Shown here: piece after piece, positions 42,478 through 61,835 of the stretch
How positions within the stretch are numbered: position 1 is the first letter of the stretch
Layout: every line of letters starts with the position of its first letter
Source of the DNA: a virus
Length of the DNA stretch: 64,000 nucleotides
Strand: one strand, 5' to 3'
IMG/VR virus record: IMGVR_UViG_3300025030_000050
Coordinates: 32,001 to 96,000 of that record
The notes under the pieces: model-generated
Database searches by the model: none
The model's input: only the letters and a program-made list of their open reading frames with translations
Told to the model about the DNA's origin: nothing
Made by a program: the position numbers and the translations under genes

Positions 42478-42870
42478 TTATGGCGAAACTGAAATCGTGA
42501 CTTTCTTTTCAGGGTTAACGTAGAAATTGATTGGCTTAATGATACGGTCATGAGCCACCCATTTTACCTCAGTTGAATAATCACTTTCGTAACCATAGAC
42601 ATCATAAGCTGTGGCGGCGAAATAATAGGTTGTTCCAACAACAAGATCCCCTACTGAGCCCTCAACATGACCATCCACCATTGTGCCCATTTTCTGGTCA
42701 ACATCTAAAGTGTATTTTTTTGACGCTGTGCCATAGTAGATCTTATACCCGGCAAGGCTGGTCTCTGCATTTGGAGACCAAGAGAACCTTGCCTCGGCAG
42801 CAAAAGCATAACTGGATAAGAATAAAACAAAAATAGTCGCAAAACAAATTTTCTTTAACATAATTTTCAC
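42478..42870 (-). CDS. secreted fibronectin type III domain protein
   Basis: Signal peptide ending AFA|AE; W.PN.E..LAGYKIYYG, TYYFAATAYD..G.ES.YS.E. Confidence 0.85.
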   Translation of the reverse strand: MKIMLKKICFATIFVLFLSSYAFAAEARFSWSPNAETSLAGYKIYYGTASKKYTLDVDQKMGTMVDGHVEGSVGDLVVGTTYYFAATAYDVYGYESDYSTEVKWVAHDRIIKPINFYVNPEKKVTISVSP

Positions 42871-46925: not shown

Positions 46926-49391
46926 TTAATCCTCAAATTCAATTATACCCTTAGCTTTTTTAATTCTATCTTCCACTAAATCAGAAAGATCGATCTCATC
47001 AAATGTCTTTTTAACTTTATCAACAAATATATCTTTTATTTGAATAGCATCAAAGTCAAATTCGACTTCTGATTTTTTAACCGGGATTTCTATTTCTATA
47101 AAATCAATGCTTTTTGTCTCTATATTATTGCCAATATCTTTTTTCTTATCTACGTTCTTTAAATCTTGAATTAAGCATCTTTGCTCTTTCATTTGTTCTA
47201 AAGACTGAATTAGAGCTTCTTCAATACTAATTCCATCATCTTCAGCAATCATTTTAGCAAATTCTACTAATTCTTTTAAATGAGCGCCAGAATATCCATC
47301 TGTTAATTTAGCAAACTCAGTTATAATATCCTTATCGGCATCTTTTATAAAAAACTTTAATAGTTTTATTCTGTTATCTTCATCTGGAAGTGAAAAATTT
47401 ATAATATGATGAAACCTACCAGGCCTATCAATCAATGCGTCTGGAATATCTTCTGGGAAATTTGAAGTTAAAATAGTTAGAACACCTTTATTTTCCCTTA
47501 TCCCATCCATTTCAGTTTTTAACAAATCAACAGTATAGCCACTAAGCCATGTATCAATATCTTCTAAAAAGAAAACACTAGGCGCAAGAGTTCTAGCCAT
47601 TTCAAAGCCAATGCCTAAAGCACTAGCAGCTCCCCAGCCAAAATCTTTAGATGAAGCCCAGATAAAAGTCGTATCTGCTTTATTCATCAAAATCTTCCCA
47701 GTTAATGTTTTGCCCGTACCTGGGGAACCAATAAACATCATTCCACGACTAGGAGACTTTGTAGATAATTTTTCAATATTCTTCTTAATTTTATCCTTTG
47801 CTTCATCATTTGGGAAAATGACATCATCCCATCCTATTTCCTTAACCTCAAGAAATTCTCCACCAATAGAAAATTTTTCACCTTTAAGATAATTATTCTC
47901 ATCAACCCATTTTATAGCATCTCTGACAAACGATTTATTTAATTCAATATTTTTATTAGAAGTAAAAATATCAATACTTAAACCACCCCAATTTTTATAA
48001 ATTTGAAAAACAAACCTATCACCATCATTTGATTTATAAAATTGAGTTCCAGTTACTAAAAACTCTTCTTCTAATTTTGAATTCAATTTCACAACAGAAT
48101 GCTGCAATGGGATTTCAGATCCATTACCATAAAAATTTCTTTGATCAAGGAGTTCATGCTTAGACAAAACATTCTTAAATGCAGAAAGAAAATTGCCTTT
48201 CATAGCATTCGGGATAAAAAAATCTGTAGTGAAAATATCTTTTATTTTACACCCCAAATATTTCGTAAAAATTTTATATTCAAATCCTGCCGGTTCTGTC
48301 CTTACTTGAGTAATATCAAAATCATTGACATATTCTTTTTTTATTTTTTCTAAATCAACATTTTTTACTTTTAAAGAATTGAAAAATTTAATTCTTGCAT
48401 CTATTACATCTGTTTCCTTTTTAATCTCTACTTCCTGTTTCTCTTTATTAAAATCATCCAATTCTTTTTCAATGATTATGTCTATGTCTATCTCTGATTC
48501 TGATTCTTTAACATCCTCTAATTCCTGATCTTTCTCAATTAAAGTTTCATCAATATCCACATTATCGGAAATTAACTCCCCTTCCGGTTCATTAATAACG
48601 ACAGTTTTTTCAATTATTTCTTTATCGGAATCTTTAGTTACGTCTTCATTATTTTCTTTACTGCTAATAAATTCTATATCAACATACCAATTGCCCATTT
48701 TTTTGATATCTTCTTTTTCCTTACTTATGAAGTCATCACCAGCCAATAATCCAAAAACTTCATCAGGGATATTTATTTCTTTAACTATTTCTTCTTTTTT
48801 CTTTTCTAAATCAACAAACCCAACAATTTTTGCTTTCTCATTATCTTGGTCAATTTCATTTACAAAATCAACAATAGATTTTGTAGTAATCTCTCCATTA
48901 GCCACTCTTTCTACTAATGCTGAGTAATGGTCCGGCACTACAACAGCTGATATTTCCAAAAGTTCAACTTTTTTAAAAACCCTATCAGGGATTTTGCCGC
49001 CTCTAGTATATTTTTTTATTTCAACTTCATTCATATCATCTTTATATAAAATTTCTTTAGGAATAAAGCCTACAGAAAATGCATTCATAACTCCGCTAGA
49101 GTATAACTTGTAAAAAGTTTCTCCTTCTTCAGTTTCAGCAAACTTAACCTTGAATTTTAATCCCTGACCAGGATAGACTTTAGTCCAAGCTGCCCTACCA
49201 ATAGGAGGTCTATCATATTTATGGAAAGCGGGGATGACAGGATTTTCTATAAAATTTTCTAATTCCCAAGCATTATCATCAATTAAATCTCCACTTCTAT
49301 CTATAGAATCTGATTTATTCGCATAAGCAACTACAGATTTTTCTACCTCATTCACTTCTTTTTGAAAAATATTTTTAAATAACTTTTCCAT
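46926..49391 (-). CDS. prohead protease - acidic scaffold-like linker - AAA+ ATPase fusion
   Basis: DR.GD, FH....PIG, FSVGF, LLEISAV.VP; GSPGTGKT, FLEDID, TSN, DRPGRF, GYSGA.L.E. Confidence 0.9.
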   Translation of the reverse strand: MEKLFKNIFQKEVNEVEKSVVAYANKSDSIDRSGDLIDDNAWELENFIENPVIPAFHKYDRPPIGRAAWTKVYPGQGLKFKVKFAETEEGETFYKLYSSGVMNAFSVGFIPKEILYKDDMNEVEIKKYTRGGKIPDRVFKKVELLEISAVVVPDHYSALVERVANGEITTKSIVDFVNEIDQDNEKAKIVGFVDLEKKKEEIVKEINIPDEVFGLLAGDDFISKEKEDIKKMGNWYVDIEFISSKENNEDVTKDSDKEIIEKTVVINEPEGELISDNVDIDETLIEKDQELEDVKESESEIDIDIIIEKELDDFNKEKQEVEIKKETDVIDARIKFFNSLKVKNVDLEKIKKEYVNDFDITQVRTEPAGFEYKIFTKYLGCKIKDIFTTDFFIPNAMKGNFLSAFKNVLSKHELLDQRNFYGNGSEIPLQHSVVKLNSKLEEEFLVTGTQFYKSNDGDRFVFQIYKNWGGLSIDIFTSNKNIELNKSFVRDAIKWVDENNYLKGEKFSIGGEFLEVKEIGWDDVIFPNDEAKDKIKKNIEKLSTKSPSRGMMFIGSPGTGKTLTGKILMNKADTTFIWASSKDFGWGAASALGIGFEMARTLAPSVFFLEDIDTWLSGYTVDLLKTEMDGIRENKGVLTILTSNFPEDIPDALIDRPGRFHHIINFSLPDEDNRIKLLKFFIKDADKDIITEFAKLTDGYSGAHLKELVEFAKMIAEDDGISIEEALIQSLEQMKEQRCLIQDLKNVDKKKDIGNNIETKSIDFIEIEIPVKKSEVEFDFDAIQIKDIFVDKVKKTFDEIDLSDLVEDRIKKAKGIIEFED
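47332..47359 (-). promoter_or_regulatory. sigma28-type promoter (internal, upstream of MCP)
   Basis: TAAA-GTTTTTTATAAAAGAT-GCCGATAA. Confidence 0.65.
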
Positions 49392-50229
49392 TATATAATC
49401 CCTCTAAAAAATCTTTTTTAAATTTATAAAATTGTTCCGGCGTAGTTATTTTACCATATATTTTATGGAATAATTTATGTTCATCATTGTTTAATGTCAC
49501 AACATTATTAATATCAAATAAAATATTTTTAAATTTTATCCAATTGTCTTTATTAATATTATTTTCTCTAATTATTGTTGACAAAGATTTTAAATGATGA
49601 TGGATTAATTTGCTCCTATTATTTTTATTCAATATAATTGATTTATATTCATCTCTTTTAAAACACCTTTCTCTATTTTTAATATAACCAGAAGACTTCC
49701 TTATTAAATCTTGCAAAGATGTTAACCCGCCCTTCCATTGTGGACTATTTTCTTTAATATACTTACCAACCCTAGCACAATCTGTACATTTTTTAGAACA
49801 ATATTTTCTTTTACTTCCACGCCTGTATAAATTCAGCATCCGTTTATTAAAAATTTTATATTCTTTGCCACAATATTCACAAATTAAAAATATTGTTGAG
49901 ACATCTTTTTTATTATTATCATAACATATACGAGAACAATACTTTTGATTAGATTTATTACTTTTGGGTTTATACGTCTTACCACAATATTCACAAATTT
50001 TATTTTCTATAAATATTTTATCGAAGGCATAACAATAATGAGAACAATATTTCCTTCCATCTTTTATTTCAGAATTCCTTGCTTTATAGGCTATACCGCA
50101 ATATCCACAAATAAGGCAAACACTATTATTTTTAATAGATTTTTTATTTTTACAAATAGAAGAACAATATTTTTTTCTTTTGATACTAGTTTCAAATTCT
50201 ATAGAACAAAATTCACATTTTTTAATCAT
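49375..50229 (-). mobile_element. HNH-like endonuclease with repeated CxxC-YCSxxC zinc fingers
   Basis: Four CxxC...KYCSxxC units, SPQWKGG, HH, N..TL...H..FH..YG. Confidence 0.8.
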
Positions 50230-50245
50230 AATAAATTCTTCTCAT

Positions 50246-50455
50246 TCAATCACACCAATAATTACATTGGATAAGAAATTTATTATCGCCAATTTTTTTT
50301 ATTACAGAACCGTCATCAATCCCCATACATTTACATTCTTTGTTCGCTATACATTTCAATTTAGTTTTATCATGATTATATCTTGGACAAAATTCATAAT
50401 TTTCTGGGATTAGCTGATTTTTATTGTTTTGTACTGCACGAACAAGATTAATCAT
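50246..50455 (-). CDS. hypothetical protein
   Basis: ORF track, coupled. Confidence 0.5.
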   Translation of the reverse strand: MINLVRAVQNNKNQLIPENYEFCPRYNHDKTKLKCIANKECKCMGIDDGSVIKKIGDNKFLIQCNYWCD

Positions 50456-51224
50456 GATATTCCTTTTTTAATTTTTCCAATGAATAGGTTTGGGTGTCAA
50501 ATCTCCCTTCTTTAAATGAATCGAGTAAAACCAAGCCTTTCCAATATTCAGTAATTCTGCCGTGTACATAATCTTCATGTTTTTCAAAAAAACAACCTAC
50601 ACTTAATATTTGTTGTAAATCATCTTGCCCATGCCTTTTAAAACCTTCATACTCCATACTGTGAACATGAGCAAAGACACAACTCGTAAACATTAATTGG
50701 CTAACTTTTTTTGTAATATTCACCCCACAAACTTCTTTTGTTTTATTAAATGGAATATGTGTAAAATTTATTTTATTTATATTTAAATATTCTCTGTAAG
50801 GAATAAATTTTATATTCCTTTCTTTTAATTTTAGATCTTTTTCTATACTTACTAGACCTTCAAAAGTTGGATCATATTCTAAATATCTGTTGAGACGATT
50901 TCCATGATTACCGTTAAGATAATAAACATTTGGTCTATATATTTTTAATTTTTGCAATCTTTGCTTTTCTTGTAATTCTAAAAGTTCATAAAATATAATA
51001 TCTAAAGCTTCGTTCCCTTTATCTATTTCTTTTTTATATCTTTTACCTTCCATTCTTTGTCGTTTATCTTTATCAAAAAATGACAAACAACTCATTGTTA
51101 AAAAATCACCCATAAAAATAATAACATCTGGTTTTTTATCTATAATAAATTTACTTAACAACTTAAACCTACTTAAATCATCAAGTTCATCTATATGACA
51201 ATCACCTATTGGCAATATTAACAA
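50448..51224 (-). CDS. calcineurin-like metallophosphoesterase
   Basis: GDCH, MGD, GNH, TH, HVH motifs. Confidence 0.85.
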   Translation of the reverse strand: MLILPIGDCHIDELDDLSRFKLLSKFIIDKKPDVIIFMGDFLTMSCLSFFDKDKRQRMEGKRYKKEIDKGNEALDIIFYELLELQEKQRLQKLKIYRPNVYYLNGNHGNRLNRYLEYDPTFEGLVSIEKDLKLKERNIKFIPYREYLNINKINFTHIPFNKTKEVCGVNITKKVSQLMFTSCVFAHVHSMEYEGFKRHGQDDLQQILSVGCFFEKHEDYVHGRITEYWKGLVLLDSFKEGRFDTQTYSLEKLKKEYHD

Positions 51225-51295
51225 TTATTATCCTCTAATTAAATTATTAAAATAAAATCAGTTGCAAAAATGCGAATGCTATTGTTGCTGTCACC

Positions 51296-53122
51296 TTATT
51301 TAAACCTTACCGAACCTGCGCCTTCTTTAGACCTTACCGAACCAACAGACTCAGTTGATGCCACAATGCTGAAACTCGCTTCCGTGCTTGTTGCGTTTGC
51401 GTTGCCAGAACCATCAATACACCTGATGTAATAAGTGTATGCCGCGTTGCAATCCAGGTTTACGAGGCTTGTGGTGTGTGTAGTTCCCCCGCCACCTGAG
51501 AAAGTAAAATCCATATCGGCGTAGGCTTCATCGGTAAGGCTTCCTTTGCAGGTGGCAGACTCATCTGTTGTCGCGCCAAGCACTTTGGTTGTTGGGTCCG
51601 AGGGGCAGGATAGTTCTCCGGTAAGCGTAACGCCAGAGATAACCGGCGGGTCAAGGTGTGTGATGGTGATAACCGGGCTCGCAACGATGGCTGCAGATCC
51701 GGTGAGGATTGAGGCCGGGATTGTTGCTGTTATCGTCTCATCTGCTGAGACGTCATAAGCATCTACTTTTACAATTAGAGTTATCTGCGTATCACTGTTA
51801 CGGATGCAGTCAGCGTACGTCCAGTTTGCTTCATCATCCCAACTGCCTGCCCCAGACAATGAGCCGTTGAAACCAGCCAGTAATGCGGTAGTGGCTGCGT
51901 TATCAGCACAAGCCGTCGCAATAAAGGTGTCGCCATCCAACGTGATGATTATTGTCTGGTCATCTCCGGCAAGCTCTGTTTCAGTTACTCCGCCTGTTAC
52001 GGCTGTGCCTGTGAGTGTTGCGTTTACCCCTAACATGGCAAAATATGTAGGCCCTATACGACTGCCATCAATAATAAAATCATCGACATAGTAGGCCATA
52101 TCCAAGGCTTCCGAAATTTCTCTGATAAGAAACGAATGGTTGCCACCAAAGAAAAACTTATTATAATTGTAGTCCTGGCCTGCCTCAACTACAACTCCGT
52201 CTGTTTTTGTAAATATTTTTGTAACATTCCCTTCAGCATCGTACAACCACATTTCAGAGACAGCATCGGCATTCCCTGCCGTTCCTGTGGTTTGATGGAA
52301 TTCTATCCCAAACCACTGCTCATTGCCGATAGCTGTCCCCAAAAACGGCTTAATGCTATACGCAGTGCCTCCACCGTCTACGGCATCATATGCCTCGTAC
52401 AGCAGGTCATTATTCCAGTCTGCATCATAAGCCGAATCGAGACGGAGGCCTGGTTTGAAAAATAACTCATACCCGTAGGTTGCTCCTGTTTTTATGTCCG
52501 GCAAATAATGTGATTGCCCATAAACCTGGCCTTGCCCATCTGCCTGAGCGTATTCGTCATATATTGAACTGGCTGAGTATGCCCCAGCCACAAGAGTGTT
52601 AAATTTGTAATAACTCCAATACCCGGTGAAATTTCCGCTTTCATCCCTGTAAGGGAAATGGTTGTAGGGCATCTTCACCATATAGAAAATATAAATGTCA
52701 TCATAACCAGAATCTATGGTCCCTGATGTTGCATACCCATCACCAAGCGTGAAGTACAAGCCGAACCTGGAAGGTCCTTTGTGGTCAACCGTGCCTTGTT
52801 GGGATAGATCAAGCCGTAACGACTTACCTGTGCCCTGCCAAACATTTGCTGCCCCATGATTTGCAATCCAATCATAGGTGCTATCGGTGCTTGACTGGTA
52901 ATAATACATGTTCCAGATTGAAGCTGAATTATCTGCTGATTTAGTTGGCAAATTATTAAAATAATACCCAACTCCTGTTGATGTTCCACTCCAGTCATTA
53001 AGCTGGTCGAAAGTCTCTACAATATCAAAACCGGCACCTTCAAGATCTGACTGCCAATCAGCCACAGCCTGGACCGGCAAGGCCAATATGATGAAAAGCA
53101 AAAACTTAATAGCCACTTGCAT
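51296..53122 (-). CDS. secreted protein, polysaccharide-lyase/lectin-like domain plus Ig/FN3-like domains
   Basis: Signal peptide ...ALPVQA; W...E....G..D....W..., YYVDDFII...RIG; YTYYIRC.D..GN. Confidence 0.65.
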   Translation of the reverse strand: MQVAIKFLLFIILALPVQAVADWQSDLEGAGFDIVETFDQLNDWSGTSTGVGYYFNNLPTKSADNSASIWNMYYYQSSTDSTYDWIANHGAANVWQGTGKSLRLDLSQQGTVDHKGPSRFGLYFTLGDGYATSGTIDSGYDDIYIFYMVKMPYNHFPYRDESGNFTGYWSYYKFNTLVAGAYSASSIYDEYAQADGQGQVYGQSHYLPDIKTGATYGYELFFKPGLRLDSAYDADWNNDLLYEAYDAVDGGGTAYSIKPFLGTAIGNEQWFGIEFHQTTGTAGNADAVSEMWLYDAEGNVTKIFTKTDGVVVEAGQDYNYNKFFFGGNHSFLIREISEALDMAYYVDDFIIDGSRIGPTYFAMLGVNATLTGTAVTGGVTETELAGDDQTIIITLDGDTFIATACADNAATTALLAGFNGSLSGAGSWDDEANWTYADCIRNSDTQITLIVKVDAYDVSADETITATIPASILTGSAAIVASPVITITHLDPPVISGVTLTGELSCPSDPTTKVLGATTDESATCKGSLTDEAYADMDFTFSGGGGTTHTTSLVNLDCNAAYTYYIRCIDGSGNANATSTEASFSIVASTESVGSVRSKEGAGSVRFK

Positions 53123-53876
53123 TATACACCTTCCCGTTGTCAATATATCCATCAGAGGTTAAAACTGTAGCGCTAGCCCCGCCCCATGCAAACACGGTGT
53201 TAGAACCAGTAGACGCGGCAGGGTCGTTGTCTGCTTCCGCAGTAACACAGTTGGTTGTGCCGTCAGCGTCACAAGTTTTTACATACATGTCATTTCCTGC
53301 CGCCGTCTCTTCTATCCACCCAGCTTCAAAATAAAACCACTCGCCTTCCGCACGGCCACTGCTGGCAGGGATGTTTACTGTATCCGCTGTACCGCCCCCG
53401 GTATGTGTGAGCAAAAGAAGGATATCAGCGGCATCACCTAGCGATGCAAAAGACAAAAATACCCGGTTTGATGTATCCAAAACGTTGTACCATATGTACT
53501 GCGCATCAGCATACATCCCAGTGCCAACATAACACCTGCCAGAAATTTTCCCGTCTGAAACAAGATCAGTTGCAGTTGTAAACTCGGCCCTGGAGCTTGC
53601 CCCATCACCATGGATTGCTGATGCGCCGTCATAGAATTGATCGGTCGTTCTTGCTGCGCCACTCTGATAAGTGGGAGATGTATCTTCCGTCGAGCACCCG
53701 GCAGGAGTTCCGGTTGTTACGTCATCCGTCTCCATGTGCCAGGAGTGGATCAGTGTCCCGGTACAGGAGTCTCCGGCAGTGGCAGTCTCATTTACATTGT
53801 TTTCCCCGCCCGGACCCCAGGCAAAGGCCTGAAACGGTGCGAGAAGAAGTGCAAGAAATAAAAACCGCTTTATCAT
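53106..53876 (-). CDS. secreted LamG/ConA-like protein
   Basis: Signal peptide ...FQAFA|W; WHME, EWFYFE..W, YIDN..VY. Confidence 0.65.
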   Translation of the reverse strand: MIKRFLFLALLLAPFQAFAWGPGGENNVNETATAGDSCTGTLIHSWHMETDDVTTGTPAGCSTEDTSPTYQSGAARTTDQFYDGASAIHGDGASSRAEFTTATDLVSDGKISGRCYVGTGMYADAQYIWYNVLDTSNRVFLSFASLGDAADILLLLTHTGGGTADTVNIPASSGRAEGEWFYFEAGWIEETAAGNDMYVKTCDADGTTNCVTAEADNDPAASTGSNTVFAWGGASATVLTSDGYIDNGKVYNASGY

Positions 53877-54892
53877 GAAGCACCCCCATCAACCCAGGTT
53901 CCGCTGCGGCCATTGGTATTGGCCTTCGTGGTTGACCGGTTGTGGATGCAGATAAAATTCCCAGCTGCTCCGGGGCTGTCAAGTTCGTACCCAGCTCCGG
54001 CAAGAGCGGCACCATCCAGGTAAATTGTCATGCCGTCAGATTGAGGGTCAATCTTCACAACATTGGCACCGTCAGAATAGACACACCCTGAATAGTCAGC
54101 GATCGCCGGCCAGAGTATTGTTGTGGCCGCATTGATGTACCACCACGATCCAGACTGAAGAGGACCGGGGGCAAGCTTCCATACGTCCCCATCGTCCCAG
54201 TTATTATCGGTTCCACCTGTCAAAGTACCGACCAAAGTCGTGCCTGCATTATCTATAACCGGCGCGACTGACCCATCGGTTACGTTGTAAACCGTCATGC
54301 CTATGCAGCCGTCAACCGGCAGTGACTCGCTGGAATCGGTCATAAAAGCAGCATCGGCACCACCATCATGCACGCCCTCGGTGGTGGTCAAAGAAAAGCT
54401 TTTCGTATGGCCGTTGATTGTTCCGCTGCTTTCGACGACCATGTCATTAGAAAAAGAGACTGCGACATTTGAAAGATCCAGTGTTGCAAGTGCCTCAATC
54501 CAGCCCTGCACCTTCGTCGCCATGTAAGTTGCAAAGTCAGTCAGGGCAACCTGCACCATCGTGCCGTTGTCGTTTACTACGGCCCGGTCAGCATCGACAA
54601 GCGTGGTGGCTGTTGCGGCTGTATCGCCATCAGATGTGGCTGTAAGCTCGGTTGCGGACGGTGTCATGTTGGTTATCCCAGACACGGTTAATGCAAACGG
54701 CGCATATACATCCTCGCCGATCAATGCCTGAATCTCTGCCGAGGTGTCCACGGTTGGATCTTGCTCTGTTGCCGCGTTCGTGCCGCCCTTATTGGCGTCC
54801 TGATAGCCGTTGTTGTCAGCGTCAAGCTCAACCGCTAAGGCTTTCCAGGGAATCAGCAGAACAAGTGCCGCTATCAATAGAATTTTATTCAT
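53873..54892 (-). CDS. secreted fibre-like protein
   Basis: Signal peptide ...KALA|V; KGGT, DADR.VVND.GTM.QV..TD and N.TDGS...GGTDN.WD.GD motifs resembling phage fibres. Confidence 0.6.
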   Translation of the reverse strand: MNKILLIAALVLLIPWKALAVELDADNNGYQDANKGGTNAATEQDPTVDTSAEIQALIGEDVYAPFALTVSGITNMTPSATELTATSDGDTAATATTLVDADRAVVNDNGTMVQVALTDFATYMATKVQGWIEALATLDLSNVAVSFSNDMVVESSGTINGHTKSFSLTTTEGVHDGGADAAFMTDSSESLPVDGCIGMTVYNVTDGSVAPVIDNAGTTLVGTLTGGTDNNWDDGDVWKLAPGPLQSGSWWYINAATTILWPAIADYSGCVYSDGANVVKIDPQSDGMTIYLDGAALAGAGYELDSPGAAGNFICIHNRSTTKANTNGRSGTWVDGGAS

Positions 54893-54903
54893 TTGTCATC
54901 TCC

Positions 54904-56541
54904 TTACCATGTAGCGGTTTCACCGCCGAAAGTTGCTGATTCACCACCAAAAGTTACTAGCTCGATATGCAATCTACCCCCACCCAACGAATAACTGTCA
55001 GGTGTCCCCAGAAACCACAGGGGCGGCGGCATTGTCATGCCTTTGCACAACTCGTATGCGCCGATTGGCTCGCCAGACCCGCAATAGATATTGTCGTGGG
55101 CGGTGCCGGCGTCAAAGAGCGATTTGAGGCGGGGACGGCCTTGAGTGTCGAGGAGGGGATTGTCGGTTAAGTCGGTGGCGTCGAGCGTTATGTCATTGTC
55201 AGGTGCATTGTAAACAAGGTTGTCGTGCTCCACAGCGACAGATCCCGCGCTTGTTTCAAACCCTTTGCTTGTCGGGCTGTCACAGAGGTTATTAATCCAC
55301 GTAGTGGTATTGCCTATGTTGTCACCGTCAGCTTGACTAAAGCAAACATTTGGGGAAATAACAGTGTTGCCAATCCATCGATTCCCACTACTCTCGTTGC
55401 TAGCGTTCCTCAACCCCATGCCGCTTGAACCACTTACGAGATTATGCTCTACAAGGTTTCCAGTTCCTTTGAAAATGCTTATGCCCCGCCCCCCGCAAGC
55501 CGCGTTGGTGTTTTTAATAATATTTCTGGCGACATAATTGCCTGTTGACAACAGTGTGTCATCGGTGTTCGACCAATCCAAGATAATGCCACATCCGTCG
55601 CAACTTGCCGTGTCAACACTATCAATCCTGTTATCGATTACGTCAACCTCGTTAATCCAATGGAGCTGAAGGCAATTTACCATTGGGTAGTCCGAGTCAC
55701 CACATTGTCCTACATGATTATCCTCTATTGTGCTGGCTAAAGTTGCACCGTTGATGCCACCAGGAAGACCCATAAACGGTCCCCGTGTGTGGTCAACATC
55801 ATTCCTCGCAACAGTCAATCCTTCGACTCTATGCCCTCCGCTCCAGACATCTGCGTCAGCGGTGCCGAATATGAAATTTTTGAGGTAGTCGCCAATGTTA
55901 TCGGTAATGGAGATATTATACGGGTGTTTCGCATTTGCTCCCGCCTGCGCCATCCTGATCCCTTCCATTGTCCCATTGCTGCGAAAATCATTGTGGTGAA
56001 AATTTATGTTGTAGGAATCAGCGGTTGACGTGTAGATATCAAGGCATGTCTGGGATGTGTCCGAATCGCAAATAATATTCTTCACTTCAACATCATGTTG
56101 CCCGAAAAAGTACACTATGCGCCCGAGAGCGGCGCCGCCCGCAAACGTCAGAGTGCCGAGGCCGTCAATTTGATAGCACCCTCTACCAGCTACCCCAAAA
56201 AGAAATCCTTGCGTTGCGGAGTAAGACAAAACCGGTGCATCCCCAAAAGCTGGCGCAAAATAATACAGCGCATCCGATGTGCCGGTGGCCCTGACGATAA
56301 GCTGCCCGTCAATGGGGCCAGCATCGTCGCAAAAGTAAATTGTATCACCCGGGGTCATATCCGCGGCGTCTGTTCCCCAGTTATCTTGCGCGGAAAACCA
56401 AGACTCATCATGGGCAGTAGCACAACTTGTACCTGAATCATCGCCTTGAGTTGCCCCAGCAATGTAGACGCCCTTCGCCCCCGCCACGGACGGCATGGCC
56501 AACATGAGGGACAGAAGCAGGGCTAGAATTTTCTTGATCAT
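54904..56541 (-). CDS. secreted parallel beta-helix (pectin lyase-like) protein
   Basis: Signal peptide; PGDTIY, repeated ..N.. beta-helix coils, NPLL...DAG...IGAYE C-terminus; 14 Cys. Confidence 0.75.
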   Translation of the reverse strand: MIKKILALLLSLMLAMPSVAGAKGVYIAGATQGDDSGTSCATAHDESWFSAQDNWGTDAADMTPGDTIYFCDDAGPIDGQLIVRATGTSDALYYFAPAFGDAPVLSYSATQGFLFGVAGRGCYQIDGLGTLTFAGGAALGRIVYFFGQHDVEVKNIICDSDTSQTCLDIYTSTADSYNINFHHNDFRSNGTMEGIRMAQAGANAKHPYNISITDNIGDYLKNFIFGTADADVWSGGHRVEGLTVARNDVDHTRGPFMGLPGGINGATLASTIEDNHVGQCGDSDYPMVNCLQLHWINEVDVIDNRIDSVDTASCDGCGIILDWSNTDDTLLSTGNYVARNIIKNTNAACGGRGISIFKGTGNLVEHNLVSGSSGMGLRNASNESSGNRWIGNTVISPNVCFSQADGDNIGNTTTWINNLCDSPTSKGFETSAGSVAVEHDNLVYNAPDNDITLDATDLTDNPLLDTQGRPRLKSLFDAGTAHDNIYCGSGEPIGAYELCKGMTMPPPLWFLGTPDSYSLGGGRLHIELVTFGGESATFGGETATW

Positions 56542-56867
56542 TTTACCCTCGTTAACGTGAACTCAAATCTTTCAATCCCGCCTTTGTACAAAATACCCCT
56601 GAATGTGCCGTCATCCTGCTCTTCAACAACATCGATAATGTCACAGAAAAATTCATGGTTTTTCGGGTGGTTATAGTCAAGGCAGTATTTTTCCCCGTTC
56701 GTGCTCACGTAGAAATGCGCCCCCTCAATCCCCACGGCCCGGTTGAATCCCTCGCCGTCCTTGATGATCTTGTGGTCGCCAAGCGGGTTGAAAATGCTTG
56801 CCCAGCCGTGACAGGTCACTGCCCATTCGCCGTCAAGATTCATAATATTATCAACCCAAAAGTTCAT
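56538..56867 (-). CDS. hypothetical protein
   Basis: LDY..P.N...I.D.V.....G...G; first gene of the GC-rich island. Confidence 0.6.
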   Translation of the reverse strand: MNFWVDNIMNLDGEWAVTCHGWASIFNPLGDHKIIKDGEGFNRAVGIEGAHFYVSTNGEKYCLDYNHPKNHEFFCDIIDVVEEQDDGTFRGILYKGGIERFEFTLTRVK

Positions 56868-56870
56868 ATA

Positions 56871-57329
56871 TTAAAGCAAAGTAATAATAATTGTCCCAGT
56901 AGCACTAACACCACTATTTGACGCAATATCAAGTTGTAATGTAGTTGGGCTTCCAATTGGATAATTAGCGTTATTACTGTCAATCATTGAATATTTTTCA
57001 ATAGTATCACTCGTATCTATATTAGATAAAGCAGTCCCAAATACATCTACTCCAGCATCATCTTTTAATGTTATATCAGCAACACCAGTCGTTACAGGAG
57101 TAGAGCCGGGTATATGCCTTATCTTTAAAATAAATCCATAATATCTACTTACAGAAATCCGTGTCGCAGTAGATAAAGACCCATCAGCAGCAGTTTCATA
57201 CTCTATTGTTAGTGTTCTTAACCCAGACATTGTACTTTTTGATACAGAAAATGTTACAAGTTCTGCACAATAAACATTAATTGGGACAAATAAAAACAAA
57301 AACAAAAAAACCAATCTTTTAACCATCTT
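56871..57329 (-). CDS. signal-peptide-bearing structural-like protein
   Basis: MVKRLVFLFLFLFVPINVYC|A; PG...YDITL.D..G.D-like motif; SD GGAGG. Confidence 0.65.
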   Translation of the reverse strand, partial: KMVKRLVFLFLFLFVPINVYCAELVTFSVSKSTMSGLRTLTIEYETAADGSLSTATRISVSRYYGFILKIRHIPGSTPVTTGVADITLKDDAGVDVFGTALSNIDTSDTIEKYSMIDSNNANYPIGSPTTLQLDIASNSGVSATGTIIITLL

Positions 57330-57344
57330 ATCCTCCAACTATTG

Positions 57345-58721
57345 TTAATTTTGCAGAACAGCTAATTTTTTAGGATTATCAATTATATTTCCAGCGCCAG
57401 TACCTTGAGCTATATTAGATAAAACGCCATCCATAGTTGTCATGTTGACCGCAATTAATGGTTCATCAAATCTTTTATCAAATTTTTCCTTACCCAATCC
57501 TGTTCTAACTTCATTAATTGATTCAATTCCTGTTTGAACATGTTTAATTCTTTCATTTAACAATTCTTCTCTTGAGTCAGGAACGCAATTATCATATGCT
57601 AGAAACAATTTTTCATCATATCGCCAAATCAATTTTTCATTTAACTTTTCTTCAATTCTTCTCAATCTCGGTTGGATTGTAAAACTCATATATTGATATA
57701 TAGCAGCGTCTACATTCGCTCTGTTCGCTTCTTTACTATACATACCTAGTGCTTGTCCAAAAGCGTTTAAAATCAACTCTCTTATCTTTTCTCTGCCACC
57801 AAGATAAGACATTTCTTTAGGCGAAGTTCCAACTGGTTTAAATTTTAAACCACTATCAAGTAATGGCATTTTCCCCGCATTTTTAGGGCCAGTAAACGCT
57901 TGTTTAATTTCAGCCTTTAATCTTTCAAATTCATGATCTCCTAGTTCACTATCTGTTTCAAATGTCCCTGACAATGTTCCTTGATTTTTGAACATTGCTT
58001 CTTCATATTCATTTATAGAATGGTTTAATGAATATTCTTCAGTAATAGAAGAAAAAGGAGGGAACCCATAATAAACAGATTTTGGATTTGGCATTTTAAA
58101 ATGAATCACAGCTTTTTCTTTTAAATCTATAGACTGTGTTCCTTTTTGATATTGATAACCAGAAATAAAACTTTTACTATCTGGAACAACTTTACAATTT
58201 TGTGGCGGAATAATCCAAATTTCTTTTGGGATACCCATTCTGTCTTCAAGAATATGCCAGAATGTATTTCCAGTAAGTTCCTGATACAACTGCGTCATTT
58301 GCATCAGGTCAAAATTATTCATGAAATTGTTTACATTTTTTTTCAAATCAAGAAATGGATGATCAAGAACTTCTTCAAATTCGCTAGCTTTTCTAACAGA
58401 AGTTATATTTGATAGAAATGGATTTTCCCTAATAAAAGCGTCTTGAGATTTTGAAATATTTCTCGTAGGAAAATTTTTTATTTTTTGGCCTTTCTTATTT
58501 TTTGCCACATAAAGTCTAAGAGGAATATTTGCTACACTATCAGCATTTTTAGAACTTGCAATATATACCCAAGACTTATAAGAATTCACCATCGCATTAA
58601 AATCATCTTCTGGGTACAACTCTCTGCCATATTGCCATGGGTAAAGCCATGGCAATGACGTTCTTTTTCTTCCAACTCTAGCAGCTCTCATTTCAATTTC
58701 ATATTTAAAAGGGTCTATCAT
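57345..58721 (-). CDS. portal protein (HK97 family)
   Basis: WVY....A..VA..PL, HP, L.GN..W, VIHF..PNP....G..P, NAGK..L, NE.R. Confidence 0.93.
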   Translation of the reverse strand: MIDPFKYEIEMRAARVGRKRTSLPWLYPWQYGRELYPEDDFNAMVNSYKSWVYIASSKNADSVANIPLRLYVAKNKKGQKIKNFPTRNISKSQDAFIRENPFLSNITSVRKASEFEEVLDHPFLDLKKNVNNFMNNFDLMQMTQLYQELTGNTFWHILEDRMGIPKEIWIIPPQNCKVVPDSKSFISGYQYQKGTQSIDLKEKAVIHFKMPNPKSVYYGFPPFSSITEEYSLNHSINEYEEAMFKNQGTLSGTFETDSELGDHEFERLKAEIKQAFTGPKNAGKMPLLDSGLKFKPVGTSPKEMSYLGGREKIRELILNAFGQALGMYSKEANRANVDAAIYQYMSFTIQPRLRRIEEKLNEKLIWRYDEKLFLAYDNCVPDSREELLNERIKHVQTGIESINEVRTGLGKEKFDKRFDEPLIAVNMTTMDGVLSNIAQGTGAGNIIDNPKKLAVLQN

Positions 58722-59056
58722 TATTTATTTCCTTGAGAAGCTTCAAGATAAACTTTATACCTATTTTTAAAAAAGTCTTCATGAAAATATTTTTCAATAA
58801 ACTCTTTTTTTTCTGTATCAAAATATTCTGTAATAATATACAATTTATTTTCTTCTGGTTCTAATTCTCTTAAAATAAAATCTGGTGATGAGGAATAGTC
58901 TTTAATATAAAATTCTATCCCATCATGAATTAATAAAAGACCTTTTGGAAATATTTCTTCTAATTTTGCAGAAAAAAAATAATAATTTTGAGCCAAATTT
59001 TTTGTTGCAAATATATAAAAAATATTGTAAAGTAGTTTAAAAATATTTTTTATCAT
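58721..59056 (-). CDS. hypothetical protein
   Basis: Coupled ORF between TerL and portal. Confidence 0.55.
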   Translation of the reverse strand: MIKNIFKLLYNIFYIFATKNLAQNYYFFSAKLEEIFPKGLLLIHDGIEFYIKDYSSSPDFILRELEPEENKLYIITEYFDTEKKEFIEKYFHEDFFKNRYKVYLEASQGNK

Positions 59057-60801
59057 ATTACTCTTATATGAGGAATCGCAGGCTCAAAGAAACATTGCAT
59101 TAAAGAAGCAAACTTGTCTGGGCTTCTCCCAATCTTCTTTTTAATTGTTTTCTTATCACTTACTTTAATTTTACCACTACTTTGGTCTTCGTAATATTCA
59201 AACGCGAGCATCTCTTCCCTTAAATCATTATCATCCGGAATCATAGCTGAAGGATCTTTCTTAAGCCAGTCAGCTATGGTCCAGGCCAACTCATCTCTTA
59301 TTAAATGAAACTTACCCAATTCACATTTTTTTTGACTTGGTGAACTTACATAAACTTTTCTGGCATTAATATGGCATCTTGCCATTTCTTTATGACAAAC
59401 AGGGCACTTATAAATACTTTCATCAAGATAAGTTGTTTTATAATGAGAGCATTCATTATTTTCACACCTCCAATACCACATTCTACCAACTCTCGGAGGT
59501 ATTGCAGCCCCAATCCCGTCAGCTTCTACATTAGCCTGATCTGCATCCAAACTTACATAAATTTTACTAAGTCTATCTGATGATTTATCTAAATCAACAC
59601 CCTTCCAACTTTCAAATCCATCTATATAATTACCATATCTTTTAGCAACACAACAATTATCTCCACCCTCATCAGCAACGTCCATTCCTAGTAATGGCTT
59701 AATCCCTTTTATTACATCCTTCCCGTATGTTGCCCGATAAAGTTTCCATCTACTTACAGCATTATCTATATCCACCATACTTATTAGAGAACTTTCTGTA
59801 CAAGATGGGTACTCCCCTAAAACCTTATAGGAAAAAGCAGGATTTGTTACAACCCTCCATCCACCCTTTAAAGGTGGATAGAATTCATTATTTCCTGAAG
59901 GTTTTTCACCAGTAACCCCAATTAAAAATTCAGGAACTTCAAAACAAGATTTATCAACCTCTTCATCATCCCTTAACTCTCTTGACCAGCTATTAATCCT
60001 TTCAACAACTTTATCTCTACTTACTGCTCCTGGAATTAAATTTTTGCCACTCACTACATTTGGGTGATTAAATGCAGACATTGTGATTACATTTGCTTTG
60101 CCTTTAGTCAATTCATAGACATACCCAGATTGACGTTTTGGGTTATACATATTTAATTGCCTACTGCCATCACCTGAAAGACACCCATCCTCGCCTTTAA
60201 AAACCTCATCTGGGATAGCATCACTTTCATCATTTTCATAAAAAAGATAATCTGCATGCTGCCCACTAAATTTAGCTTCTCTTTCCTCAGCAGAACCAGT
60301 GGATGGAATTGTTTTTCCAGTTATAAAATGTTTTCCACTACTTTCTCCGTAATCATCTTCTTTGCTATTTAAATTAATGTCATCTGTTATTTTTAAATTT
60401 AAAATTCTATCACTTTTAAATAATTTTCTATTTTTAACAACAATCTCTACTATCTCACTCCAAAGTTTTTCCTTTAAATTATTTTCAGGAGGAGCAGCAA
60501 CGGCAATTGTTTGTGATTTTGGGAAACAGCGATAATGCCAAATAGCAAGAGCTGCGGCACAAAAGGTTTTTCCAGTTCCGGTCGCTGATTTAACAACTGT
60601 GACTTTATTGTCTCTAACAGATTCAGCAATTTTAATTAAATCATCAGGAATTATTTTTATTTTTAAAATTTCTCTAAAAAAAACAACTGGATCTTTTTGA
60701 TATTTCGTATAATCTATATCATCCAGCAAGACCGATTTTATTTCATCTTCATTAAAAAGATTAGCAAGCAAATCTAAAGCTTTTTCATCTATGCCCATCA
60801 T
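59053..60801 (-). CDS. terL: terminase large subunit
   Basis: SATGTGKT, DES, NP, VLGEYP, GMDVA..G.D, DGIG, K...GRSPD. Confidence 0.93.
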   Translation of the reverse strand: MMGIDEKALDLLANLFNEDEIKSVLLDDIDYTKYQKDPVVFFREILKIKIIPDDLIKIAESVRDNKVTVVKSATGTGKTFCAAALAIWHYRCFPKSQTIAVAAPPENNLKEKLWSEIVEIVVKNRKLFKSDRILNLKITDDINLNSKEDDYGESSGKHFITGKTIPSTGSAEEREAKFSGQHADYLFYENDESDAIPDEVFKGEDGCLSGDGSRQLNMYNPKRQSGYVYELTKGKANVITMSAFNHPNVVSGKNLIPGAVSRDKVVERINSWSRELRDDEEVDKSCFEVPEFLIGVTGEKPSGNNEFYPPLKGGWRVVTNPAFSYKVLGEYPSCTESSLISMVDIDNAVSRWKLYRATYGKDVIKGIKPLLGMDVADEGGDNCCVAKRYGNYIDGFESWKGVDLDKSSDRLSKIYVSLDADQANVEADGIGAAIPPRVGRMWYWRCENNECSHYKTTYLDESIYKCPVCHKEMARCHINARKVYVSSPSQKKCELGKFHLIRDELAWTIADWLKKDPSAMIPDDNDLREEMLAFEYYEDQSSGKIKVSDKKTIKKKIGRSPDKFASLMQCFFEPAIPHIRVI

Positions 60802-61807: not shown

Positions 61808-61835
61808 TTATCGGCATAAGTTAGCAAAAACTTTA
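61808..61835 (-). promoter_or_regulatory. sigma28-type promoter upstream of tRNA-His/terS
   Basis: TAAA-GTTTTTGCTAACTTAT-GCCGATAA. Confidence 0.7.

What the first reader, a model, noticed from the sequence alone, without database searches (positions are those of the whole stretch)
51290..57338. GC-rich island of Sec-exported, Cys-rich fibre/lectin-like proteins embedded between portal and prohead protease
Seen: 51290-56867 is visibly more GC-rich (roughly 50% vs roughly 30%, by eye) than its flanks. Four consecutive genes (54904, 53873, 53106, 51296) and the adjacent AT-rich gene 56871 start with textbook signal peptides (basic N, hydrophobic core, AxA-type site). They carry beta-helix, LamG-like, lyase-like/Ig and fibre-like motifs, and three are Cys-rich (14 Cys in the beta-helix protein). 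Known: tailed-phage virion proteins normally fold in the cytoplasm without signal peptides. Inference: these late-operon proteins are exported, possibly disulfide-bonded in the periplasm. They may then decorate the virion at lysis (extra-cytoplasmic assembly) or remodel the host surface or matrix. This is a strong candidate for an undescribed module.
Basis: partly seen in the sequence, partly recalled or inferred. Interest (0 to 1): 0.8.

Follow-up and report, generated by a model that had tools for sequence, protein, structure and literature searches.

The report
Borrowed cassette of exported sugar-cutting phage proteins
A low-GC groundwater phage has recently picked up, from unrelated higher-GC phages, a five-gene block; four of its proteins carry secretion signals and look like sugar-cutting or sugar-binding tail-fibre parts, so they are probably sent out of the cytoplasm to act on the host's surface sugars rather than being built into the virus particle.

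Summary
Window 51296-56843 is about 50% GC with GC3 0.45-0.61. The 113-kb phage is 33% GC with GC3 about 0.2, and has no other such stretch. The island is not an assembly chimera: contigs from four runs bridge both junctions without mismatch.

The island has five intact genes. The first is a conserved 101-aa protein without a signal. Four exported-type proteins follow:
- a right-handed beta-helix (AlgG/PL6/tailspike-like);
- a protein with a phage-fibre repeat;
- a LamG jelly roll;
- a PL14/PL36-lyase-like jelly roll with two Ig-like domains.

"Cys-rich" is not supported.

Five relatives with 60-63% identical portals lack the island. Their portal-protease gap holds homing endonucleases instead. 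The same cassette, 101-aa gene first and signal-bearing beta-helix next, sits in at least four other 48-50% GC phage backbones from the same aquifer. In one it follows a P22-type tailspike that itself has a signal peptide. In two it follows endolysins.

Best reading (about 0.5): a recently transferred, self-contained accessory module of Sec-exported polysaccharide-active proteins, transcribed with the late genes. Export followed by attachment to virions is not excluded (about 0.2).

This scan has noted signal-bearing phage fibre proteins before on other DNA.

The parts
56871..57326 (-). Orphan 151-aa protein with a signal peptide (MVKRLVFLFLFLFVPINVYC|AE). Its codon use is native and AT-rich (GC3 0.18). 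It lies next to the island but is not part of the foreign DNA.
   Evidence: Only five close homologues among 5.8 billion proteins. No family match. Absent from relatives L001-L005.
56844..56870 (.). Right junction: an AT-rich 27-nt spacer between the stop of the 151-aa gene and the ATG of the first island gene.
   Evidence: DNA homology to L006-L011, L015 and L016 ends at 56843/56844 in every case. Bridged by contigs of runs X3, X7, X8 and X11.
56538..56843 (-). p101: a 101-aa protein without a signal peptide. It is always the first gene of the cassette and is 66-73% identical across all backbones. Function unknown.
   Evidence: GC3 0.61. dN/dS 0.16-0.24. No Pfam, PHROG, NCBIfam, PADLOC or PDB match.
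54904..56541 (-). Signal-peptide protein of 545 aa with three parts: a conserved signal (..AMPSVAGA|KG), a right-handed beta-helix (about residues 24-445), and a conserved C-terminal module of about 100 aa.
   Evidence: AF2 model with pLDDT 70 and pTM 0.74. Foldseek matches: AlgG epimerase, PL6 lyases, RbmB and tailspikes. Homologues carry PF13229. The C-terminal module is 73-85% identical on otherwise unrelated beta-helices. dN/dS 0.09 against L006.
53873..54892 (-). Signal-peptide protein of 339 aa. After the signal it has a conserved N-terminal module with a DxDxNGxxD..GGTN motif, one phage tail-fibre repeat (..DGDTAATATTLVDADRAVVNDNGTMVQVALTD..), and a C-terminal domain ending GRSGTW.DGGAS.
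   Evidence: The first 65 residues are 80% identical to L007's otherwise unrelated 446-aa protein.
53106..53876 (-). Signal-peptide protein of 256 aa with a LamG/concanavalin-like jelly roll.
   Evidence: ESM Atlas: structural TM 0.61-0.67 to Laminin_G_3 phage structural proteins and bacterial LamG proteins. Signal peptide by rule.
51296..53122 (-). Signal-peptide protein of 608 aa (start at M11). It has a jelly-roll domain of about 360 aa resembling PL14/PL36/PL20 polysaccharide lyases, followed by two Ig-like/fn3-like repeats.
   Evidence: AF2 model with pLDDT 81. Foldseek matches 5gmt, 6kcw, 3gne and 2zzj. 1017 homologues at E<=1e-10; some end in dockerin, others are giant multi-Ig proteins. 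Three paralogues in a Moranbacteria surface-protein array.
51225..51295 (.). Left junction: the shift back to AT-rich phage DNA, upstream of the metallophosphoesterase gene.
   Evidence: Bridged without mismatch by contigs of X3 (49000-54761), X7, X8 and X11.
57345..58721 (-). Portal protein (context, upstream flank).
   Evidence: PF04860 at E=3e-51. 60-63% identical portals in L001-L005.
49375..51224 (-). Metallophosphoesterase (50448-51224) and HNH endonuclease (49375-50229). These are native variable cargo of the same portal-protease gap.
   Evidence: The metallophosphoesterase is shared with L004 at the same place, at 69% DNA identity.
46926..49391 (-). Prohead protease fused to an AAA+ ATPase (context, downstream flank).
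   Evidence: PF04586 and PF00004.
61809..61835 (-). Sigma-28-type promoter-like site (TAAAGTTTTT..GCCGATA) ahead of the terminase-portal-island transcription unit. It is the nearest such site upstream of the island.
   Evidence: Three sites found against 0.05 expected; none between 61809 and 47359. No convincing terminator on the minus strand inside the island.

Best explanation
The island is a recently acquired, self-contained accessory cassette that moves between phages of one groundwater community. It starts exactly at the ATG of a conserved 101-aa cytoplasmic protein. It then encodes four pre-proteins with SPase-I-type signal peptides.

Proposed mechanism (inferred). The cassette has no promoter or terminator of its own that I could find, so it is read through with the late genes (terminase, portal, cassette, protease). 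The four proteins are exported by the host Sec system and fold outside the cytoplasm. In a diderm host that would be the periplasm. A diderm host is suggested by the P22-like donor phages, whose nearest cultured relatives infect Pseudomonas and Vibrio.

There the beta-helix (AlgG/PL6-like) and the PL14/PL36-like jelly roll would cut or modify an acidic capsule, exopolysaccharide or O-antigen-type polymer where it is made and exported. The LamG, Ig-like and fibre-repeat parts would bind the polymer. The expected result is an infected cell stripped of its sugar coat. At lysis a dose of free depolymerase would be released. Progeny would then not be trapped on debris or matrix and could reach neighbouring cells.

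Shown: the foreign origin, both junctions, intact genes under purifying selection, signal-peptide features conserved across homologues, the folds, and occurrence of the cassette in several unrelated backbones.

Inferred: export itself, timing of expression, substrate, and benefit to the phage.
For: Foreign and recent:
- GC3 is 0.45-0.61 against about 0.2 elsewhere, and this is the only such island in 113 kb.
- 81% DNA identity to L006 over 54977-56844. Homology ends at 56844 in all loci.
- Five relatives with 60-63% identical portals lack the island. They carry HNH, HTH or metallophosphoesterase cargo in the same gap.

Real DNA:
- Both junctions are bridged with 0 mismatches in four runs from at least three studies, with equal depth in island and flanks.
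- The identical beta-helix protein is recorded on 8 contigs.

Functional:
- dN/dS is 0.09-0.24.
- Genes are tightly packed or overlapping.

Export signals:
- Five of the seven credible signal-peptide proteins in 178 ORFs are contiguous here.
- The signals are conserved in homologues.
- K, E and R are depleted and A, G, T and D enriched, as in extracellular proteins.

Sugar-active folds:
-.
- Homologues of two island proteins lie side by side in an array of about ten signal-bearing surface proteins of a Moranbacteria genome. Some homologues carry dockerin.

Self-contained and mobile. The order p101 then signal-bearing beta-helix recurs in each of these backbones:
- P22-like L010/L011, after the tailspike;
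- L025/L026, after a 707-aa fibre;
- L027/L028, after a GH108 endolysin;
- L009, after a Hydrolase_2 endolysin.

Shared host is plausible. The phage's own signal-less 666-aa fibre shares a 140-aa segment with the donors' tailspike at E=1e-13 to 1e-15.
Against: - No experiment and no trained signal-peptide predictor; export is inferred.
- Fold matches are at superfamily level only (TM 0.35-0.52), and catalytic residues were not examined.
- The host is unknown, so 'periplasm' is an assumption.
- The beta-helix family has a constant signal, a constant C-terminal module and an exchangeable middle. The fibre family has a constant N-terminal module. This is the architecture of receptor-binding proteins that dock onto something, which could be a virion.
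- In donor L010 the true P22-type tailspike also has a signal peptide.
- No RNA data were available to show late expression.
Confidence: 0.5

Rival explanations
1. Exported virion parts. The four proteins are receptor-binding or depolymerase appendages that fold outside the cytoplasm and join the finished particles only when lysis mixes the compartments. The constant C-terminal module (beta-helix) and N-terminal module (fibre) would serve as docking pieces.
For: - In donor L010 the cassette sits in the receptor-binding slot, directly after a tailspike with a P22 head-binding domain (PF09008, E=2e-18). That tailspike begins MKRTITAIFLFLAFTFTCQAHA|YN. The predicted cleavage would expose a P22-like N-terminus.
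- The 339-aa protein carries a repeat shared with Collar/S74 tail fibres.
- The constant-end, variable-middle architecture matches receptor-binding proteins.
- Logan contigs break inside the beta-helix gene in all four runs, and variants at 98%, 88% and 54% identity coexist. Such microdiversity is typical of host-recognition genes.
- In-vitro joining of P22 tailspikes to tail-less heads is established knowledge.
- Earlier notes of this scan report whole fibre loci with signals; these are unchecked leads.
Against: - The cassette works in at least five unrelated backbones, two of them beside endolysins, and it was transferred here without the donor tailspike.
- No recognised virion-binding domain is present in the island proteins.
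- This phage has its own signal-less fibres of 666 and 926 aa.
- Close relatives lack the island, so it is not needed to build this particle.
Confidence: 0.2
2. Host-conversion or superinfection-exclusion cargo. The exported proteins alter or remove the receptor polysaccharide of a carrier or infected cell to block other phages, like the conversion genes that follow the tailspike in P22-like prophages.
For: - In P22-like L010/L011 the cassette occupies the slot after the tailspike and before the oppositely oriented early genes. In P22 the gtr conversion genes lie there (established knowledge; layout).
- The GC shift and the presence/absence among relatives are moron-like.
- Matrishin et al. 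2023 (PMC10367356) proposed envelope modification for signal-bearing phage genes of unknown function.
Against: - In this phage the cassette has no detectable promoter or terminator of its own and lies inside the late operon.
- The gene content is unlike gtrABC/oac.
- No match in PADLOC.
- Whether this phage is temperate was not examined.
Confidence: 0.15
3. Inert hitch-hiker: DNA captured by illegitimate or homing-endonuclease-stimulated recombination at a hotspot, not yet lost and without a role in this phage.
For: - The portal-protease gap is a cargo hotspot with HNH genes in all relatives.
- The island's composition has not yet drifted toward that of the phage.
- No flanking repeats.
Against: - All five genes are intact and gene boundaries are preserved exactly at the ATG of p101.
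- dN/dS is 0.09-0.24, although that mostly reflects selection before the transfer.
- The same genotype was recovered in runs from several studies and years.
Confidence: 0.1
4. Assembly chimera between a low-GC phage and a higher-GC organism.
For: The abrupt GC change. Related cassettes in the same samples make the assembly graph branch near 56712-56777.
Against: - Independent Logan contigs from four runs span 49000-54761 and 56727-59500 with no mismatch, and depth is equal.
- 12 of 15 runs hold at least half of the sampled words of the stretch.
- The junctions fall exactly at gene boundaries in one co-oriented operon.
Confidence: 0.02

Closest known systems
Phage polysaccharide depolymerases and tailspikes (P22 gp9, Sf6 and CBA120 tailspikes, Klebsiella capsule depolymerases), including soluble depolymerase released at lysis
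   Same: A right-handed beta-helix fold. An exchangeable catalytic middle between constant end modules. Strong microdiversity. The likely substrate is a surface polysaccharide.
   Different: The known enzymes have no signal peptide and fold in the cytoplasm, and their constant module is an N-terminal particle-binding domain. Here there is a cleavable-type signal, and the constant module is C-terminal and unknown to Pfam and PDB.
Periplasmic alginate-processing enzymes (AlgG C5-epimerase; PL6, PL14 and PL36 alginate lyases; Vibrio RbmB)
   Same: These are the best fold matches for the beta-helix (4nk8, 6qps, 7o79, 9ozd) and for the jelly roll (5gmt, 6kcw, 3gne). AlgG acts in the periplasm on a polymer in transit, which is the compartment and task proposed here.
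   Different: Only 8-16% sequence identity with TM 0.35-0.52. Catalytic residues were not checked. The genes are encoded by phages in a mobile cassette.
Morons and lysogenic-conversion cassettes (for example the gtrABC slot after the P22 tailspike)
   Same: Foreign composition, presence or absence among close relatives, and in the P22-like donor the same genomic slot.
   Different: No detectable own promoter or terminator. The gene content is unrelated. Here the cassette sits inside the head-gene operon of a large, probably virulent phage.
Signal-peptide endolysins (Oenococcus phage fOg44 Lys44) and signal-bearing phage genes of unknown function (Porphyromonas phages, Matrishin et al. 2023)
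   Same: A precedent that tailed phages use the host Sec system for late proteins (PMC6116005; PMC10367356). In L009 and L027/L028 the cassette directly follows the endolysin gene.
   Different: These proteins are not peptidoglycan hydrolases. There are four of them, each with a sugar-binding or sugar-cutting fold.
Signal-bearing tail-fibre loci noted earlier in this scan on other phages (unpublished AI notes)
   Same: Signal peptides on tailspike-, fibre- and lectin-like late proteins. The donor L010 looks like such a locus.
   Different: Here the block has left the fibre locus and landed, as compositionally foreign DNA, between portal and protease of an unrelated long-tailed phage. It did so without the particle-binding tailspike.

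Membership tests
Sec/SPase-I signal peptides | Basic n-region, uncharged hydrophobic core of about 7-15 residues, small residues at -3 and -1, no lipobox, no twin arginine | tested here: met
   The rule-based scan gives AGA|K, ALA|V, AFA|W, VQA|V and VYC|A. The features are conserved in homologues. No trained predictor or export assay was available.
Right-handed parallel beta-helix (pectate-lyase superfamily, PF13229) | Stacked three-strand coils; sequence or fold match to the superfamily | tested here: met
   The AF2 model shows about 40 short strands over residues 24-445. Foldseek probability is 1.0 to AlgG, PL6 and tailspikes. PF13229 is recorded on homologues P0003 and P0010-P0012. The query itself is below the Pfam threshold.
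Polysaccharide lyase families PL14/PL36/PL20 (jelly-roll lyases) | Jelly-roll fold plus the family's catalytic residues in the cleft | tested here: inconclusive
   The fold match has TM about 0.5 by target at 13-14% identity. Catalytic residues were not examined. One homologue shows a sub-threshold Polysacc_lyase_14 hit.
LamG/concanavalin-A-like lectin fold (Laminin_G_3) | Thirteen-strand jelly roll matching LamG domains | tested here: met
   The Atlas model has TM 0.61-0.67 to Laminin_G_3 clusters. There is no Pfam hit at sequence level.
Phage tail fibres with Collar (PF07484) or S74 chaperone (PF13884) ends | Fibre repeats plus a virion-attachment N-terminus and a Collar or S74 C-terminal domain | tested here: not met
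   Only one fibre repeat (residues 73-125) is shared. The N-terminus is a signal peptide. The C-terminal domain is a different family.
P22-type tailspike (Head_binding, PF09008) | N-terminal head-binding domain | tested here: not met
   No island protein has it. It is present only on the donor's 669-aa protein L010:7523-9532.
Moron | Extra gene block absent from relatives, deviant composition, own promoter and terminator | tested here: inconclusive
   Absence from relatives and deviant composition are met. An autonomous promoter or terminator was not found with the simple scans.
Known anti-phage defence or exclusion proteins (PADLOC) | Match to a defence-system model | tested here: not met
   No hit for any of eight proteins.

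The most novel reading that the evidence does not exclude
Tailed phages of this aquifer share a transferable kit of host-recognition proteins that are made for export. The kit comprises a constant signal peptide, constant docking modules and exchangeable sugar-cutting or sugar-binding middles, led by a small conserved cytoplasmic protein. The proteins would fold outside the cytoplasm, assemble with each other and, in the P22-like carrier, with a signal-bearing tailspike. They would be loaded onto particles only at lysis. The same kit could then re-arm quite different phages, including this long-tailed one.
Probability: 0.15. Interest if true: 0.85.

Novelty: new variant of a known kind. Interest (0 to 1): 0.6.

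Why it matters
Textbook assembly of tailed phages is wholly cytoplasmic, and phage depolymerases are described as signal-less particle parts or as free enzyme released at lysis. This case offers a clean natural experiment. A block of four signal-bearing, fibre- or depolymerase-like genes has moved as a unit between phages with different particle architectures and different base composition. That argues the block works on its own, outside the cytoplasm.

If the enzymes act in the periplasm on polysaccharide in transit, this would be a new way for a phage to strip its host's coat from the inside. It would also be a source of secreted, modular polysaccharide enzymes. If instead the proteins reach the particle after export, the accepted order of tailed-phage assembly would need an addition.

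The case also shows homing-endonuclease-rich gaps in the head operon acting as landing sites for foreign cargo.

Tried and rejected
The contigs of the closest protein variants (P0001, P0018, P0020, P0016) could therefore not be read. Loci were obtained with the search for related loci instead.
- blastn of the island against 50,697 phage records gave no match.
- Pfam, PHROGs, NCBIfam and PADLOC gave nothing significant for any island protein. This includes the constant C-terminal module of the beta-helix, the N-terminal module of the 339-aa protein, and p101.
- PDB sequence-profile searches with A1, A2 and A3 gave nothing useful.
- A single-sequence scan of IMG/VR with the beta-helix gave nothing. 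The alignment-based scan found only 27-35% relatives.
- The 339-aa protein was not found in the Moranbacteria genome with this query.
- No flanking direct or inverted repeats mark an insertion mechanism.
- The 151-aa signal protein showed no significant similarity to the positionally equivalent small signal proteins of L024 or L026, or to the phage's other signal protein at 42478.
- Three literature searches found no paper describing signal peptides on tailspikes or fibres. A fourth listed a rumen-phage paper, PMC5723332, that holds both search terms and was not read.
- A Candidatus Moranbacteria host was considered because two island families occur there. I rate it unlikely. The nearest cassette relatives are in P22-like phages whose cultured kin infect Pseudomonas and Vibrio. 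The late promoters are sigma-28-like.
- The periplasmic-disulfide argument was dropped because Cys is not enriched.

Full report
**What the record is.** The window is bases 32001-96000 of a single 113,349-bp virus contig with 33.4% GC. Around the finding all genes run on the minus strand in this order:
- small and large terminase;
- portal (57345-58721, PF04860 E=3e-51);
- a 151/155-aa protein;
- five GC-rich genes;
- a metallophosphoesterase;
- an HNH endonuclease;
- a prohead protease fused to an AAA+ ATPase;
- the major capsid protein.

**The observation.** GC rises to 0.43-0.54 between about 51250 and 56750, with flanks at 0.22-0.33. No other kilobase of the contig exceeds 0.44. The shift is carried by synonymous positions. 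GC3 is 0.45, 0.46, 0.55, 0.53 and 0.61 in the five genes, against about 0.15-0.30 in nearly all others. The adjacent 155-aa gene has native GC3 of 0.18. So the island is compositionally foreign DNA, not a by-product of Ala/Gly/Thr-rich proteins.

**Signal peptides.** A simple von-Heijne-type rule flags 10 of 178 ORFs. Three of the ten are 60-aa ORFs of doubtful reality (window 626 and 6706) or a small membrane protein (genome 19622). Of the seven credible proteins, five are the contiguous genes of the finding, with predicted sites AGA|K, ALA|V, AFA|W, VQA|V and VYC|A. The real start of the 618-aa ORF is probably M11. That of the 155-aa ORF is the ATG behind GGAGGA.

**Cysteine.** Cysteine is not enriched: 1.6% in the island against 1.8% genome-wide. 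That part of the observation falls. The island proteins are strongly depleted in Lys, Glu and Arg and enriched in Ala, Gly, Thr and Asp.

**Not a chimera.** Fifteen public groundwater or soil runs hold the stretch. I laid the Logan contigs of four runs from at least three studies on 49000-59500.
- The left junction is crossed without mismatch by X3 (49000-54761), X7 (49000-52806), X8 (49000-53267) and X11 (51123-52635).
- The right junction is crossed by X3 (56727-57586), X7 (56727-59500), X8 (56727-58792) and X11 (56833-57154).
- Depth is alike in island and flanks.
- The identical beta-helix protein is on record on 8 contigs.
- Contigs fragment only inside 54760-56727. There several variants of the beta-helix gene coexist, at 98%, 88% and 54% protein identity.

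**What the proteins are.**
- *p101 (56538-56843).* It has no signal and no known family. It is 66-73% identical in every copy of the cassette.
- *The 545-aa protein.* It models as a right-handed beta-helix over residues 24-445 (pLDDT 70, pTM 0.74). Its best matches are the periplasmic alginate epimerase AlgG, PL6 lyases, RbmB and phage tailspikes. Its last 100 or so residues model poorly, yet they are 73-85% identical on otherwise unrelated beta-helix proteins that also share the signal M[KR]KKL..LLL.PSVAGA.
- *The 339-aa protein.* It shares its first 65 residues, at 80% identity, with an otherwise different 446-aa protein. It carries one copy of a repeat (DGDTAATATTLVDADRxVVNDNGTMVQVALTD) found in tail fibres with Collar or S74 ends. 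It ends in a domain whose eight examined homologues all have signal or lipoprotein-type N-termini.
- *The 256-aa protein.* It is a LamG-type jelly roll.
- *The 608-aa protein (pLDDT 81).* It has a jelly roll closest to PL14, PL36 and PL20 lyases, then two Ig-like repeats. The repeats recur up to 23 times in giant bacterial proteins carrying Big_13/fn3. The N-domain often occurs alone, followed by a dockerin.

All these assignments are at fold level. Catalytic residues were not checked.

**Where the island came from.** Five IMG/VR phages with 60-63% identical portals have no GC island and no signal proteins in the portal-protease gap. They hold HNH endonucleases, a helix-turn-helix protein or the metallophosphoesterase there. 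The gap is therefore a cargo hotspot.

Relatives of the beta-helix and of p101 lie on 48-50% GC contigs from the same sample series. The order p101, then signal-bearing beta-helix, recurs there. Where a contig extends further, more signal proteins follow. It occurs in at least four backbones:
- *L010/L011.* A P22-like podovirus with the head-closure protein and an ejection protein. Its nearest cultured kin are Pseudomonas phage AH02 and Vibrio phages, at about 50% identity. The cassette follows the tailspike.
- *L025/L026.* The cassette follows a 707-aa fibre and a small signal protein.
- *L027/L028.* The cassette follows a GH108 endolysin, with overlapping stop and start codons.
- *L009.* The cassette follows a Hydrolase_2 endolysin.

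DNA identity to L006 is 81% over 54977-56844. Homology to every locus stops at 56844, the ATG of p101. dN/dS is 0.09 for the beta-helix and 0.16-0.24 for p101. The phage's own 666-aa fibre, which has no signal, shares a 140-aa segment with the donors' tailspike. This fits phages that meet in one host.

More distant relatives (27-35% identity) sit after a polyvalent protein in L023 and just before an SU10-type portal in L024. The only cellular genome found, among one representative genome for each of 185,579 species, with a full-length relative of the beta-helix is a Candidatus Moranbacteria MAG. There the relative lies in an array of about ten signal-bearing proteins, together with three paralogues of the 608-aa protein's N-domain.

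**Expression.** Three sigma-28-type sites (TAAAG..GCCGATA) occur on the minus strand, at 61835, 47359 and 36480, against 0.05 expected. None lies between the terminase promoter and the protease. The simple scans show no convincing promoter or terminator inside the island. Co-transcription with the late genes is therefore an inference.

**Interpretation.** The transfer as one block, its use by different particle types, its place beside endolysins in two backbones, and the bacterial secreted-enzyme kinship of two members all point one way. I read the island as a self-contained module that acts outside the cytoplasm on a surface or matrix polysaccharide (confidence about 0.5).

The virion-attachment idea keeps about 0.2, for three reasons.
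- The donor's genuine P22-type tailspike begins with a good signal peptide, and its predicted cleavage would expose a P22-like N-terminus.
- The families have the constant-end, variable-middle build of receptor-binding proteins.
- The beta-helix gene is hypervariable in the population.

Conversion or exclusion (0.15), inert cargo (0.1) and artefact (0.02) are the other rivals.

**Literature and earlier notes.** Three literature searches found no paper that describes signal peptides on tailspikes or fibres. A fourth listed a rumen-phage paper (PMC5723332) that holds both search terms and was not read. The nearest items read are signal-peptide endolysins (PMC6116005) and signal-bearing genes of unknown function in Porphyromonas phages (PMC10367356). 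Earlier notes of this scan report many signal-bearing fibre loci on other DNA. I treat those as leads only.

Noticed in passing
L010:7523-9532 (same gene at L011:3662-5671): A P22-type tailspike (Head_binding PF09008 at residues 42-121) starts with a textbook signal peptide, MKRTITAIFLFLAFTFTCQAHA|YNVVKLNP. The ATG lies 9 nt after the previous gene, and no better internal start is visible.
   Followed up: partly
L022:16383-17531 (Pseudomonas phage AH02, gene 17): In a cultured P22-like phage, the last gene after the tropism determinant also encodes a signal-type N-terminus from an internal Met (MKKLIMVLALLSPMCFA|AP). It is annotated only as hypothetical.
   Followed up: no
window 42478-42870 (-): A native, AT-rich 130-aa protein with a signal peptide (MKIMLKKICFATIFVLFLSSYAFA|AE) lies among the head-completion genes. 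It is unrelated to the island proteins.
   Followed up: partly
window 46926-49391 (-): The prohead serine protease (PF04586) is fused to a complete AAA+ ATPase (PF00004 and lid). Relatives L001, L002 and L005 have the long form, and L004 has a 468-aa form without it. This scan has already reported it.
   Followed up: no
window 61809-61835, 47333-47359, 36454-36480 (-): Three TAAAGTTTTT-N-GCCGATA sites (sigma-28/FliA-like) were found against 0.05 expected. One lies inside the protease-ATPase gene.
   Followed up: partly
L001-L005, downstream of the portal (for example L001:11486-13676): In all five relatives the portal-protease gap holds an HNH endonuclease of 315-334 aa. In four loci the sequence reaches further: three then show a helix-turn-helix protein of about 410 aa, and L004 has other cargo. 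The gap is a homing-endonuclease hotspot inside the head operon.
   Followed up: partly
window 51235-51255, 53041, and a joint 49036->53021: Logan contigs in X3, X7 and X8 leave the reference at the island's left edge and at 53041, running into other AT-rich sequence. One low-depth contig form joins 49036 to 53021 with 16 extra letters. These suggest coexisting genotypes with different island content, but this is not resolved.
   Followed up: no
L018:794-16741 (Candidatus Moranbacteria MAG) and L012 (788-kb contig): An array of about ten consecutive proteins of 440-668 aa, each with an N-terminal signal or anchor. It includes beta-helix, DUF5123, TIG and dockerin-like parts and is probably a surface or secreted enzyme battery.
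   Followed up: partly
L024:8986-14178: An unrelated 41% GC phage has three signal-bearing proteins (137, 555 and 849 aa; the 555-aa one is a beta-helix relative) just upstream of its SU10-type portal. The position parallels this window.
   Followed up: no
genome 106038-106490 (window 74038, outside the window): A 150-aa lipoprotein-type protein (MKTIIVITMCLLSGC..) that could be a spanin or an exclusion lipoprotein.
   Followed up: no
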